Below, piece by piece: positions 1 to 38,719 of a stretch of 64,000 bases of DNA. The notes under the pieces are model-generated. The model did not search any database. It worked only from the letters and a program-made list of their open reading frames with translations, and was not told where the DNA came from. Within the stretch, counting starts at the first letter, position 1. Every line of letters starts with the position of its first letter. Source of the DNA: Candidatus Schekmanbacteria bacterium (lineage in GTDB: Bacteria > Schekmanbacteria > GWA2-38-11 > J061); NCBI GenBank assembly GCA_016219965.1, contig JACRJM010000007.1, forward strand, positions 372,294-436,293, written 5' to 3'. Both the position numbers and the translations under genes were made by a program.

Positions 1-87
1 CCACGTCTTTGTAAAGAAGATGAAAGATTAAAATAATTCAAGTGTAAACCAGAGAGCCGCAGCTTTTAGTCTGCGGCATTTTATTTT

Positions 88-1260
88 ATGGGAAATGATA
101 ATCTATATCCTGTTTTTACAGCCGGCGTTTTCCTAAAACACCTTGAAGAACCGTACATCTACAACATATTAAATGACGAGCTTTACGAGATAAACGACGA
201 AGCGCTCGAATTTCTTATTAAATGTGATGGGATAACCCCCCTTTCCTCTCTTTCCTTCGATAATGAGTTCATGGATTACTGCTTAGAGGAAAAGCTTTTA
301 GAGCTAGCTGAAATCAGAATAGATAATCCAAAAAAACCGCCGGTCAGAAAGTCCCCTGTCCCGTCATTGAGATACCTTGAGCTTCAGATAACGGACAGGT
401 GTAACCTTGCCTGCCGCCATTGTTATCTTGGAGAGCCGAAAGGGAAAGAGCTTACGATTCAAAATATAAAGGATGTCTTCACACAGTTTGAAGAATTGCA
501 GGGACTCCGGATGATAGTCTCCGGCGGAGAGCCTATGCTTCACCGCGATTTTGCCATTATCAATGAAGAGATAAAAGGGCGCGCCTTCAGAGCTATACTT
601 CTTACTAACGGGACTATTATCAATGAAGAGAAAGCCAGGAATCTCAATTTCCAGGAGGTGCAGATAAGTCTCGACGGACTTGAAGAAGCACATGACCATC
701 TAAGGGGAAAAGGTAACTTTAAGAAAGCAGTTAAGGCTGCGAAAATTCTTATTGAAATGGGAATAGACGTCTCTGCGGCAACGATGATAACAAAGATGAA
801 CGCCAATGATTTCGAACCTTTGGAAGCTATGCTTAAAGATATGGGGGTAAAAGAGTGGGCTGTCGATGTGCCTGCAGGAACGGGTTTTGCGGCGGGAGGA
901 GGAGGTGATATCTTCTTGCCATCCAAAGAAGCTTCATTATATCTAAGATACGGATATGGAGGAGGGCTTTACCAGTCTACAGGGGAATATGCCTGCGGAG
1001 CCCACCTATGTGCGATAACACCTGACGGCAGCGTATGCAAATGCGGATTCTTCGCAGACAAGCCTGCCGGCAATATCAATGCTGACAGCCTTTCTGATTG
1101 CTGGGGCAGGATAGAGAAACAGAGATTCAGCGAGCTTGAATGCGGAAATTGCGAATATATTGCCGAGTGCCGCGGAGGATGCAGGTTCAGGGCAATGCTT
1201 GAGAGTTCCATGAATGCACCAGACAGTGTGAAATGCTTTGCGTATGGAATAAAAAAATAA
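88..1260 (+). CDS. Radical SAM/SPASM-domain peptide-modifying enzyme with N-terminal PqqD-like RRE (RiPP maturase-like)
   Basis: 390-aa ORF; CxxxCxxC cluster (DRCNLACRHCY); C-terminal SPASM-type Cys motifs (CGAHLC..CKCGFF and CGNCEYIAECRGGC); N-terminal ~85 aa (LYEINDEALEFLIKCDGITPL) resembles a PqqD/RRE peptide-binding domain. Confidence 0.8.
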   Translation: MGNDNLYPVFTAGVFLKHLEEPYIYNILNDELYEINDEALEFLIKCDGITPLSSLSFDNEFMDYCLEEKLLELAEIRIDNPKKPPVRKSPVPSLRYLELQITDRCNLACRHCYLGEPKGKELTIQNIKDVFTQFEELQGLRMIVSGGEPMLHRDFAIINEEIKGRAFRAILLTNGTIINEEKARNLNFQEVQISLDGLEEAHDHLRGKGNFKKAVKAAKILIEMGIDVSAATMITKMNANDFEPLEAMLKDMGVKEWAVDVPAGTGFAAGGGGDIFLPSKEASLYLRYGYGGGLYQSTGEYACGAHLCAITPDGSVCKCGFFADKPAGNINADSLSDCWGRIEKQRFSELECGNCEYIAECRGGCRFRAMLESSMNAPDSVKCFAYGIKK

Positions 1261-1476
1261 GTGGGAAAAGAATTTTCCCTTGATTTTTTTATAATGCGGA
1301 ATAACAATAAGGCCATTCGGCTCCATTTTAAAAACTTATTCGAATGCAGCATCCGAAAAGTGCATTTGAATTTATGGGAGGAGGTGATATTAAGTGAAGA
1401 TCAGAAAGATCGCAAAGTCAGCTTCTATTACCTGCAAATGTAAGTCATCTTGTTAGTATTAGATTTAATATAAAGA

Positions 1477-1516
1477 GGGGAAACATTGTAAACATATCGA
1501 TGTTTCCCTTTTTTTA
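1477..1516 (+). terminator. Intrinsic terminator hairpin
   Basis: GGGGAAACAT..ATGTTTCCC perfect inverted repeat followed by a T7 run; lies between the convergent rSAM and holB genes, A-rich on the 5' side so could act in both directions. Confidence 0.55.
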
Positions 1517-30099: not shown

Positions 30100-30262
30100 G
30101 CACCAAAAATAAAAAAACCGGAAACCTAAAAGGTCCCGGCTATTATCAATAAGGCAAATCTTTGCTCCCTTCGCTGGCATTACCCAGATCAGGTTCAAAG
30201 GGTCACCCCGCAAACCGGGATTTCTCAGCCCTCATCAGGCTCCCCTAACAACCGCATATTAG
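30100..30262 (-). ncRNA. TPP (THI-box) riboswitch with terminator-type expression platform
   Basis: Minus-strand reads UAGGGGAGCCUGAUGAGGGCUGAGAAAUCCCGG..ACCCUUUGAACCUGAUCUGGGUAAUGCCAGCGAAGGGA, matching the conserved THI-element core (CUGAGA, ACCUGAUCUGG, UAAUGCCAGCG, AGGGA); followed by CCGGGA..UUUCCGG hairpin and U7 before the thiS start. Confidence 0.85.
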
Positions 30263-38530: not shown

Positions 38531-38540
38531 ATAAAAAAAA

Positions 38541-38612
38541 GGCGGCATCCGGACTCGAACCGGAGAATAACGGTTTTGCAGACCGCTGCCTTAGCCACTT
38601 GGCTATGCCGCC
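38541..38612 (-). tRNA. tRNA-Cys (GCA)
   Basis: 72-nt cloverleaf on the minus strand GGCGGCAUAGCCAAGUGGCUAAGGCAGCGGUCUGCAAAACCGU..GGUUCGAGUCCGGAUGCCGCC; anticodon loop CUGCAAA. Confidence 0.9.

Positions 38613-38642: not shown

Positions 38643-38719
<77 letters not shown>

What the first reader, a model, noticed from the sequence alone, without database searches (positions are those of the whole stretch)
1..1516. RRE-containing radical SAM/SPASM maturase with its likely substrate off the window edge
The rSAM/SPASM enzyme has an N-terminal PqqD-like recognition domain typical of RiPP maturases. The window opens with the last 11 codons of an upstream same-strand ORF (..PRLCKEDERLK*, ending at 36), followed by a hairpin GCCGCAG..CTGCGGC and a T-run at about 56-90, then the maturase RBS. 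A terminator between a short upstream gene and the maturase is the usual precursor-attenuator-maturase layout, but the upstream gene is truncated so this cannot be confirmed here.
Basis: partly seen in the sequence, partly recalled or inferred. Interest (0 to 1): 0.55.

Follow-up and report, generated by a model that had tools for sequence, protein, structure and literature searches.

The report
Radical SAM enzyme with overlooked 20-residue peptide
The enzyme is a real peptide-modifying radical SAM maturase, but its likely substrate is an unannotated 20-codon gene just downstream inside the window (not off the upstream edge), and this enzyme–peptide pair recurs almost unchanged in at least seven bacterial phyla without matching any described family.

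Summary

The same contig, recovered with 453 more bases upstream, shows a 77-aa TusA sulfur carrier ending at position 31, preceded by IscU. It is not a precursor peptide. The hairpin plus T-run (56-87) is real, but two of four close relatives lack it.

It is a 20-codon ORF (1394-1456, MKIRKIAKSASITCKCKSSC) with a GGAGGAGGTGAT ribosome-binding site and a strong terminator.

An ORF of exactly 20 codons (M.I[KR]KV.KK....CKCK[AS]SC) follows homologous enzymes in 61 of about 78 informative loci. These come from Chloroflexota, Nitrospirota, Actinomycetota, Thermodesulfobacteriota, Betaproteobacteria, Nitrospinota and the Schekmanbacteria lineage. Variation is concentrated at third codon positions.

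No Pfam or NCBIfam model, exact-sequence record or paper matches the peptide.

Best reading: a new radical SAM RiPP-type pair with a cross-phylum invariant core. The product is probably a thioether-crosslinked, intracellular peptide. The chemistry is untested.

The parts
1..31 (+). 3' end (last 9 full codons plus stop) of a 77-aa TusA-family sulfur-carrier gene. It is not part of the module and is not a precursor peptide.
Evidence: The contig L001 extends the window 453 nt upstream. ORF L001 251-484 is MQPDEVIDAVGLYCPMP...FHVFVKKMKD*, matching Pfam TusA at 5.5e-25.
56..87 (+). Terminator-like hairpin (stem 56-77: 7 pairs, 6 of them G-C, loop of 8) with a T-rich tail that runs up to the enzyme's ATG.
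   Evidence: z = -2.4. An analogous hairpin of different sequence is present in L002 (z = -4.7). It is absent in L084 and L086, where the TusA-to-enzyme gap is 22-24 nt.
88..1260 (+). Radical SAM/SPASM peptide maturase, 390 aa.
   Evidence: Pfam Radical_SAM 5.6e-22. AF2 model with pLDDT 92 and pTM 0.91. Foldseek top hits are SkfB, CteB and SuiB at E about 1e-15. The PDB profile search gives SkfB at 4e-22.
106..309 (+). N-terminal RRE (PqqD-like winged helix) domain, residues 7-74. It is strongly acidic: net charge -13 over residues 12-75.
400..423 (+). Radical SAM cluster motif C105-x3-C109-x2-C112 (CNLACRHC).
   Evidence: These residues are invariant in 30 homologues.
994..1236 (+). SPASM domain with the full seven-Cys set: C303, C319, C352, C355, C361, C365 and C383 (CX10GX4C ... 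CX2CX5CX3C ... C).
   Evidence: All seven Cys are invariant in 30 homologues.
1263..1289 (+). Weak hairpin with a T-rich tail directly after the enzyme's stop codon. Its role is unknown.
   Evidence: The 1258-1395 spacer as a whole folds no better than shuffles (z = -0.44).
1377..1388 (+). Shine-Dalgarno sequence GGAGGAGGTGAT, 5 nt before the GTG start. An in-frame TAA at 1391-1393 fixes the ORF at 20 codons.
   Evidence: An AGGAGGTG-type site precedes all 62 homologous ORFs.
1394..1456 (+). Candidate precursor peptide gene, 20 codons: (M)KIRKIAKSASITCKCKSSC*. It has a Lys-rich leader (residues 1-13) and a C-terminal CKCKSSC core.
   Evidence: There are 62 ORFs of exactly 20 codons in 61 loci. 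I3, K5, C14, K15, C16 and C20 are invariant. Summed entropy by codon position is 11.0, 12.9 and 26.7.
1477..1515 (.). Intrinsic terminator: stem 1477-1508 (GGGGAAACAT..ATGTTTCCC), T-run 1509-1515, with an A-tract on the 5' side. It could serve both the peptide gene and the convergent holB gene (stop codon at 1514-1516 on the - strand).
   Evidence: z = -5.7; 0 of 200 shuffles fold as well. Hairpins of different sequence with a T-run sit in the same place in L002 (z = -4.3), L084 and L086.

Best explanation
Window 88-1515 holds a two-gene RiPP-type module: an RRE-containing radical SAM/SPASM maturase and, 133 nt downstream, its 20-residue precursor peptide.

Proposed mechanism:
1. The strongly translated peptide docks its Lys-rich N-terminal half (M-x-I-[KR]-K-V-x-K-K) onto the acidic N-terminal RRE of the enzyme.
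2. The radical SAM cluster generates a 5'-deoxyadenosyl radical that abstracts a hydrogen atom from the C-terminal core C-K-C-K-x-S-C.
3. The two auxiliary SPASM clusters help to resolve the radical. The most likely outcome is Cys-derived intramolecular thioether (sactionine or ranthionine type) crosslinks.

The core is invariant across phyla and no protease or exporter travels with the pair. The product is therefore more likely a small intracellular molecule with a conserved role (redox, sulfur or metal handling) than a secreted antibiotic.

Shown here: the enzyme's domain anatomy, the existence of the ORF, purifying selection on it, and its tight linkage to the enzyme.

Inferred: that the peptide is the substrate, how it binds, the chemistry, and the role of the product.
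For: Enzyme:
- CX3CX2C motif plus a complete seven-Cys SPASM motif, all invariant in 30 homologues.
- Confident AF2 model whose best PDB matches are the peptide maturases SkfB, CteB and SuiB over the full length.

Peptide:
- An ORF of exactly 20 codons is found next to the homologous enzyme in 61 loci, always on the same strand. It lies downstream in 60 of them; in L017 it sits upstream of the matched enzyme, behind a second paralogue. There are 62 copies and 53 distinct sequences.
- I3, K5, C14, K15, C16 and C20 are invariant. Every copy has an AGGAGGTG-type ribosome-binding site.
- Third-codon-position entropy is 26.7, against 11.0 and 12.9 at positions 1 and 2.
- 22 copies start between 23 nt before and 1 nt after the enzyme's stop codon, which suggests translational coupling.
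- Apart from the small Cys-rich protein in some lineages, the rest of the neighbourhood changes between phyla, while this pairing persists.
- All four loci of the Schekmanbacteria lineage carry it with a GTG start, the same ribosome-binding site and a terminator whose stem sequence differs.

Complementarity: the RRE has net charge -13 (family median -7) and the peptide +6 (range +4 to +8).

Context:
- 27 of 82 loci have rubrerythrin-like, SOD, flavodiiron or nitroreductase genes within 5 kb.
- 20 of 82 loci have NifS, NifU, TusA or TudS-like genes within 5 kb.
- Transporter genes are uncommon: an ABC ATPase cluster occurs in 10 loci and an FtsX-like permease cluster in 6. No protease cluster is shared.
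Against: - No biochemical data exist. Thioether formation is an analogy with Cys-rich substrates of SkfB-, CteB- and PapB-type enzymes, from published knowledge (PMC10114670), and the enzyme belongs to none of those families.
- About 17 loci with enough downstream sequence lack the peptide. These include a clean clade of six Ca. Methanoperedens loci that keep the RRE, so either the peptide gene can sit elsewhere or those enzymes use another substrate.
- A second small conserved partner sits directly upstream in 31 loci, with a related ~110-aa form in 16 more. This 55-70 aa three-Cys protein could be a substrate or co-factor. It is absent from this window.
- The neighbourhood counts have no background control, and related genomes are not independent samples.
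Confidence: 0.65

Rival explanations
1. One reading: the precursor is the short same-strand gene upstream (off the window edge), separated from the maturase by an attenuator or terminator.
For: A hairpin plus T-run does sit between the upstream gene and the enzyme, both here and in L002. The upstream gene is short (77 aa).
Against: - The upstream gene is a canonical TusA (Pfam 5.5e-25, CPxP-type Cys) that follows IscU and NifS.
- The hairpin is missing in L084 and L086.
- Outside the Schekmanbacteria lineage, TusA is upstream in only one other locus (L069, three genes away).
- The downstream 20-mer is found in 61 loci.
Confidence: 0.03
2. The enzyme works on, or with, a small Cys protein: TusA here, and the 55-70 aa three-Cys protein in other phyla. 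For example, that protein could donate sulfur, or be itself the substrate, with the 20-mer acting as sulfur acceptor, scaffold or second substrate.
For: - A small Cys-containing protein sits immediately upstream on the same strand in most lineages. It is the three-Cys protein in 31 loci and TusA in the four Schekmanbacteria-lineage loci. A related form sits divergently in 16 Nitrospirota loci.
- The six Methanoperedens loci keep the three-Cys protein but lack the 20-mer.
- Sulfur-trafficking genes recur nearby: NifS, NifU, DsrE-like, rhodanese and TudS-like.
Against: - The three-Cys protein and TusA are unrelated (hhalign probability 1.3%), so sharing a position is weak evidence of shared function.
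- In the Schekmanbacteria lineage TusA may simply be the last gene of a nif/isc-type operon, and a terminator-like hairpin separates it from the enzyme here and in L002.
- RRE domains are known to bind short peptide leaders, and the 20-mer is the most widely linked partner.
Confidence: 0.15
3. The enzyme is a non-RiPP SPASM enzyme (cofactor or protein maturase such as NirJ/AhbD-like or an anaerobic sulfatase maturase). On this view the 20-codon ORF is an unrelated micropeptide or a regulatory leader ORF.
For: Among the best NCBIfam hits are the heme-pathway enzymes NirJ (110 bits) and AhbD (95 bits). anSME is among the structural matches.
Against: - All of those models are missed by a wide margin (cutoffs 350-650 bits).
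- Those enzymes lack an N-terminal RRE, which this protein has.
- The ORF lies downstream of the enzyme and ends at a terminator, so it cannot act as an upstream leader or attenuator for it.
- Its amino-acid sequence, not its RNA, is what is conserved, and no Rfam family matches.
- The peptide has no C/S-x-P/A-x-R sulfatase motif.
Confidence: 0.08

Closest known systems
SCIFF peptide with its radical SAM/SPASM maturase (CteB/Tte1186; ranthipeptides)
   Same: Both pair a short, Cys-rich, highly conserved peptide with an adjacent RRE-containing SPASM maturase. Both are widespread in anaerobes, have no dedicated exporter or protease, and have an unknown physiological role. CteB is among the top structural matches.
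   Different: The peptide here is 20 aa with 3 Cys (CKCKxSC at the very C-terminus), not about 45 aa with 6 Cys. The SCIFF maturase model is not among the 25 best NCBIfam hits, and none of the hits reaches its cutoff. The host phyla also differ: Nitrospirota, Chloroflexota, Thermodesulfobacteriota and others, rather than Clostridia.
Mycofactocin (MftA/MftB/MftC) and PQQ (PqqA/PqqD/PqqE) cofactor pathways
   Same: Both start from a very short ribosomal peptide whose modified residues are invariant across phyla, acted on by a SPASM enzyme guided by a PqqD-type RRE. The product is used inside the cell. PqqE and PqqD are detectable sequence and fold relatives.
   Different: The MftC model scores 97 bits against a cutoff of 265, and PqqE 60 against 381. 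The peptide has no Tyr or Glu to crosslink or decarboxylate. No MftD/E/F or PqqB/C/F equivalents are present. Here the RRE is fused to the enzyme.
Sactipeptide synthases (SkfB, AlbA, StsB)
   Same: SkfB is the best sequence-profile and Foldseek match. These enzymes share the RRE plus radical SAM plus auxiliary-cluster architecture and use Cys-donor substrates.
   Different: StsB scores 102 bits against a cutoff of 625. Sactipeptide precursors are longer, vary between strains, and come with an immunity or export gene. None of that is seen here.
Anaerobic sulfatase maturating enzyme (anSME)
   Same: It shares the radical SAM plus seven-Cys SPASM core and is a structural match at Foldseek E about 1e-12.
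   Different: anSME has no RRE and acts on a sulfatase C/SxPxR motif. Its model TIGR03942 scores 68 bits against a cutoff of 349.

Membership tests
Radical SAM superfamily | CX3CX2C motif for the SAM-binding [4Fe-4S] cluster within a partial TIM barrel | tested here: met
   C105/C109/C112, invariant in 30 homologues. Pfam PF04055 at 5.6e-22. Fold matches radical SAM enzymes.
SPASM subgroup of radical SAM enzymes | C-terminal seven-Cys motif (CX9-15GX4C, CX2CX5CX3C, C) that binds two auxiliary [4Fe-4S] clusters | tested here: met
   C303, C319, C352, C355, C361, C365 and C383 are all present and invariant. The Pfam SPASM model is just under threshold (19.5 against 21.5 bits). Full-length fold matches are SPASM and Twitch enzymes. 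Cluster binding itself was not tested.
RRE (PqqD-like RiPP recognition element) | Winged helix-turn-helix of about 80-90 aa: three or four beta strands followed by three helices | tested here: met
RiPP biosynthetic system | A genetically linked, ribosomally made precursor with leader and core regions | tested here: met
   The 20-codon ORF is linked to the enzyme in 61 loci and is under purifying selection. The leader/core division is inferred from the conservation pattern.
RiPP biosynthetic system | The precursor is post-translationally modified by the linked enzyme | not testable with these tools
   This needs co-expression and mass spectrometry.
SCIFF / ranthipeptide maturases (CteB, PapB) | A score above the curated family cutoff, and a SCIFF-type (~45 aa, six-Cys) or CX3D-repeat precursor | tested here: not met
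   PapB model NF047865 scores 61.5 against 340. The SCIFF maturase is not among the top 25 hits. The precursor is 20 aa with 3 Cys and has no Asp.
Mycofactocin maturase MftC / PqqE | A score above the curated cutoff, and a precursor ending in GVY (MftA) or containing E-x3-Y (PqqA) | tested here: not met
   TIGR03962 scores 97.3 against 265 and TIGR02109 scores 59.6 against 381. The peptide has no Tyr.
Anaerobic sulfatase maturase | A score above the TIGR03942 cutoff, no RRE, and a sulfatase substrate motif | tested here: not met
   68.3 bits against 349. An RRE is present.
Sactipeptide synthases | A score above a curated sactisynthase cutoff, and Cys-to-alpha-carbon thioethers in the product | tested here: inconclusive
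   StsB scores 102 against 625, so the sequence criterion is not met. SkfB is the closest solved relative. The product chemistry cannot be tested here.

The most novel reading that the evidence does not exclude
The 20-residue CKCKxSC peptide may be the precursor of a so far unrecognised, conserved peptide-derived small molecule of anaerobic and microaerophilic bacteria. It could be a thiol/thioether redox cofactor or a sulfur or metal carrier, comparable in status to PQQ or mycofactocin.

Gene callers would have missed it because they do not report 20-codon ORFs. Its recurrent neighbours would be its functional partners. These are rubrerythrin, SOD, flavodiiron protein, NifS/NifU/TusA, a TudS-like desulfurase and, in Thermodesulfobacteriota, an ATP-grasp ligase that could extend the C-terminal Cys.
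Probability: 0.3. Interest if true: 0.8.

Novelty: new member of a known kind. Interest (0 to 1): 0.6.

Why it matters
RRE-guided radical SAM/SPASM enzymes paired with short peptides are a known kind of system. This particular pair appears to be undescribed:
- The enzyme reaches no curated NCBIfam cutoff.
- The peptide matches no Pfam or NCBIfam model.
- None of ten peptide variants exists as a called protein among about 15 billion sequences.
- The core strings occur in no searchable paper.

The pair is nevertheless common. At least 457 related stretches were found among species-representative genomes. Its core is invariant across at least seven bacterial phyla, which is the signature that previously led to PQQ, mycofactocin and SCIFF.

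This gives a directly testable two-gene system for new radical SAM chemistry on a Cys-Lys-rich core. It may also point to a new small molecule in redox or sulfur physiology of uncultured anaerobes.

There is a practical lesson too.

Tried and rejected
- Pfam and NCBIfam scans of the 20-mer (four variants) and of the upstream three-Cys protein found no family.
- Exact look-up of ten peptide variants found none on record.
- Literature searches found nothing relevant. I tried the core strings and radical SAM/SPASM combined with host taxa or rubrerythrin. The rSAM-RiPP compendium PMC10288494 mentions none of these taxa.
- Haft and Basu 2011 was not held under the PMC id I recalled.
- An Rfam scan of 1-1700 at E <= 1 gave only sub-threshold chance hits, so there is no riboswitch or known RNA.
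- An HMM search of the whole window for the three-Cys protein and the ATP-grasp partner found both absent.
- The three-Cys protein has no credible PDB match and no relationship to TusA.
- A search for an alternative Cys-rich short ORF in the six Methanoperedens loci found nothing conserved.
- The promoter scan found no consensus site in the enzyme-peptide spacer, and overall counts were at chance. I therefore make no promoter claim.
- The 60-aa ORF at 1261-1443 overlaps the spacer, matched no other locus in the neighbourhood clustering (singleton) and is treated as spurious.
Full report
**1. Observation check**

The + strand ORF at 88-1260 (390 aa) is real. So is the hairpin GCCGCAG/CTGCGGC at 56-77 with a T-rich tail. 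The hairpin folds better than 196 of 200 shuffles (z = -2.4). The consensus terminator scan as a whole is not above chance in this 3-kb stretch (6 sites found, 3.1 +/- 1.8 expected).

An exact-protein look-up recovered the same contig with 453 more bases upstream (L001). That frame is closed 17 codons upstream. The true upstream gene is in the next frame and ends at window position 31. It is a complete 77-aa TusA sulfur carrier (Pfam 5.5e-25), preceded by an IscU-type NifU_N gene.

No Shine-Dalgarno sequence precedes ATG 88.

**2. The upstream genes are an Fe-S and sulfur-trafficking string, not a precursor**

Three relatives of the same lineage share 56-59% identity with the window enzyme: L002, L084 and L086 (L085 is a second copy of L084's contig). 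The NCBI records name the window protein and P0003 as Candidatus Schekmanbacteria. In these loci the order is:
- rubrerythrin-like (68 aa)
- NifU
- DsrE-like
- NifS
- IscU
- TusA
- the radical SAM enzyme
- then convergent holB and holA.

The hairpin between TusA and the enzyme has a counterpart of different sequence in L002 (z = -4.7). In L084 and L086 the gap is only 22-24 nt, with no room for a hairpin. It is therefore not a conserved attenuator.

**3. The enzyme**

The protein has these features:
- the radical SAM motif C105-x3-C109-x2-C112;
- a complete seven-Cys SPASM motif (C303, C319, C352, C355, C361, C365, C383), with all of these residues invariant in 30 homologues;
- a confident AF2 model (pLDDT 92, pTM 0.91).

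The best PDB matches of the model are the RiPP maturases SkfB, CteB and SuiB, aligned over the full length at E about 1e-15. The anaerobic sulfatase maturase comes next. A profile search of PDB sequences puts SkfB first (4e-22), followed by PqqE, BlsE and CteB.

- 7.7 to TfuB1
- 7.4 to TbiB1
- 7.2 to the PbtF RRE
- 6.4 to PqqD.

NisB, LynD, MibB, TglI and SuiB also appear in the list. The Foldseek top five are leader-bound RREs, although with weak E-values.

No NCBIfam family is reached. The best hit is ScmE at 113 bits against a cutoff of 400, and anSME scores 68 against 349.

**4.

At 1394-1456 there is a 20-codon ORF, (M)KIRKIAKSASITCKCKSSC. It has these features:
- a GTG start;
- the ribosome-binding site GGAGGAGGTGAT 5 nt upstream;
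- an in-frame TAA directly before the start, which fixes its length;
- a strong terminator at 1477-1515 (z = -5.7).

The same ORF follows the enzyme in the 58%-identical relative L002 and in a 46%-identical enzyme from an unrelated metagenomic contig, L003.

I then scanned 80 species-representative genome loci fetched with a family profile. These are all MAGs, from:
- Dehalococcoidia and Chloroflexia
- Nitrospirota and Thermodesulfovibrionales
- Thermoleophilia and other Actinomycetota
- Syntrophaceae and other Thermodesulfobacteriota
- Nitrospinota
- Betaproteobacteria
- Ca. Methanoperedens.

The scan found 62 copies in 61 loci, every one exactly 20 codons. The main properties are:
- The consensus is M-x-I-[KR]-K-V-x-K-K-x-x-x-x-C-K-C-K-[AS]-S-C.
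- I3, K5, C14, K15, C16 and the terminal C20 are invariant.
- K8, K17 and S19 are nearly invariant.
- Every copy has an AGGAGGTG-type ribosome-binding site.
- All three stop codons are used.
- Summed column entropy is 11.0, 12.9 and 26.7 for codon positions 1, 2 and 3, so selection acts on the protein sequence.
- 22 copies start between 23 nt before and 1 nt after the enzyme's stop codon, which suggests translational coupling.
- 35 copies lie 32-134 nt downstream.
- All copies are on the enzyme's strand.

All four loci of the Schekmanbacteria lineage have the ORF with a GTG start and a terminator of different stem sequence.

About 17 loci with enough downstream sequence lack the ORF. These include a clean clade of six Methanoperedens loci and scattered Nitrospirota members. 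One locus (L078) shows a degenerate remnant.

**5. Context across the family**

I clustered neighbouring ORFs across the loci and scanned representatives against Pfam and NCBIfam. The recurrent neighbours are:
- a 55-70 aa three-Cys protein (LICxHCxFYKE..LECGAFK) directly upstream on the same strand in 31 loci, with a related ~110-aa form divergently upstream in 16 Nitrospirota loci. Neither matches any family or structure.
- an ATP-grasp-like gene directly after the peptide in 19 Thermodesulfobacteriota loci.
- an FAD oxidoreductase in 12 loci.
- rubrerythrin-like genes in 23 loci.
- Fe/Mn SOD in 9 loci.
- flavodiiron protein in 5 loci.
- nitroreductase in 6 loci.
- NifU in 10 loci and NifS in 8.
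- a TudS-like desulfurase in 10 loci.

Overall, 46 of 82 loci carry at least one oxidative-stress or sulfur/Fe-S gene within 5 kb. No background control was run and related genomes are not independent. However, the rubrerythrin link appears in four lineages in different arrangements.

No protease cluster is shared. Transporter genes are uncommon: an ABC ATPase cluster occurs in 10 loci and an FtsX-like permease cluster in 6. This window lacks the three-Cys protein and the ATP-grasp gene, so the minimal module here is the enzyme plus the peptide.

**6. How it most likely works**

*Shown:* the enzyme's domain anatomy, the ORF, purifying selection on it, and its linkage to the enzyme.

*Inferred:*
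- The acidic RRE has net charge -13 here (family median -7). It binds the Lys-rich N-terminal half of the peptide, which has net charge +6 (range +4 to +8).
- By analogy with solved RRE-leader complexes, the leader probably binds as an added beta strand.
- The radical SAM site then modifies the CKCKxSC core.

By analogy with Cys-rich substrates of SkfB-, CteB- and PapB-type enzymes (background in PMC10114670), I consider Cys-derived thioether crosslinks the most likely chemistry, at roughly 35-40%.

From memory only, and untested: the spacing S/A11-x-x-C14, T13-x-x-C16 and K17-x-x-C20 recalls the NxxC ranthipeptide motif. The strictly terminal Cys could also allow C-terminal chemistry such as decarboxylation, or ligation by the ATP-grasp enzyme.

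The core is invariant across phyla and export genes are not consistently linked. This points to an intracellular, cofactor-like or carrier role rather than an antibiotic.

**7. Rivals**

- *A small Cys protein (TusA or the three-Cys protein) as sulfur donor or true substrate.* It is kept at about 0.15, mainly because Methanoperedens loci keep that protein but lack the 20-mer. However, TusA and the three-Cys protein are unrelated.
- *A non-RiPP SPASM enzyme with an unrelated micropeptide.* This is unlikely given the RRE, the strength of the linkage and the failed family cutoffs.

**8. Comparison with known systems and novelty**

In logic, the module resembles three known systems:
- SCIFF with CteB: a conserved Cys-rich peptide in anaerobes, with no exporter and an unknown role.
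- PQQ and mycofactocin: a tiny peptide with an invariant core, acted on by a SPASM enzyme with a PqqD-type RRE.
- The sactisynthases, structurally.

It is a member of none of them. Every curated model is missed by a wide margin, and the precursor has neither the six-Cys SCIFF pattern nor Tyr or Glu.

The peptide appears to be undescribed:
- It has no family model.
- None of ten variants was found as a called protein among about 15 billion sequences.
- The core strings are absent from the searchable literature.

I rate it a new member (a new family) of a known kind. The novel reading still open is a new peptide-derived cofactor or carrier of anaerobes.

Noticed in passing
L003 5799-6017, L016 5832-6017 and 29 other loci; absent from the window: An unannotated family of 55-70 aa three-Cys proteins (LICxHCxFYKExDxDLECGAFKIL...) sits directly upstream of the enzyme in 31 loci, including all six Ca. 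Methanoperedens loci that lack the 20-mer. A related ~110-aa form is divergently placed in 16 Nitrospirota loci. There is no Pfam, NCBIfam or PDB match, and it is unrelated to TusA.
   Followed up: partly
L023 7338-8249, L016, L018 and 16 other Thermodesulfobacteriota loci: An ATP-grasp-like gene of about 304 aa (weak RimK, YheC/D and TTL hits) follows the peptide gene directly. It could ligate something to the peptide's C-terminal Cys.
   Followed up: partly
L015, L053, L055, L065, L068, L072 (1-2 kb downstream of the main enzyme): A second, shorter radical SAM paralogue of about 330 aa lies next to rubrerythrin, nitroreductase and flavodiiron protein genes in several Nitrospirota loci. I did not check whether it has an RRE.
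   Followed up: no
L006 1758-1820 and 3201-3263; L078 just after 7143: L006 carries two identical peptide copies with near-identical ribosome-binding-site regions. L078 has what looks like a frameshifted or degenerate peptide remnant (IQKVIRKFFGLCQRRPPC).
   Followed up: no
L046, L051, L056, L062, L080, L083 (Ca. Methanoperedens and a related archaeon): Archaeal homologues (43-45% identity) keep the RRE region but have no CKCK peptide within the fetched loci. Two conserved genes of unknown function lie on the opposite strand downstream. Their substrate is unexplained.
   Followed up: partly
window 30149-30256 (-): TPP riboswitch (Rfam RF00059, 68 bits, above the gathering score).
   Followed up: no
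window 38540-38612 and 38647-38719 (-): Two tRNA genes (Rfam RF00005).
   Followed up: no
window 1477-1515: The terminator after the peptide gene has an A-tract on one side and a T-tract on the other, and it overlaps the stop codon of the convergent holB gene (1514-2962, - strand). It may terminate transcription in both directions.
   Followed up: partly
L003 3250-5757 and L007: In Chloroflexia-type loci the genes upstream of the module are a rhodanese, a rubrerythrin, a metallo-beta-lactamase/rhodanese fusion (persulfide-dioxygenase-like) and a 59-aa CxxC...CxxC protein. This is another sulfur-handling context, distinct from the NifS/TusA context of this window.
   Followed up: no
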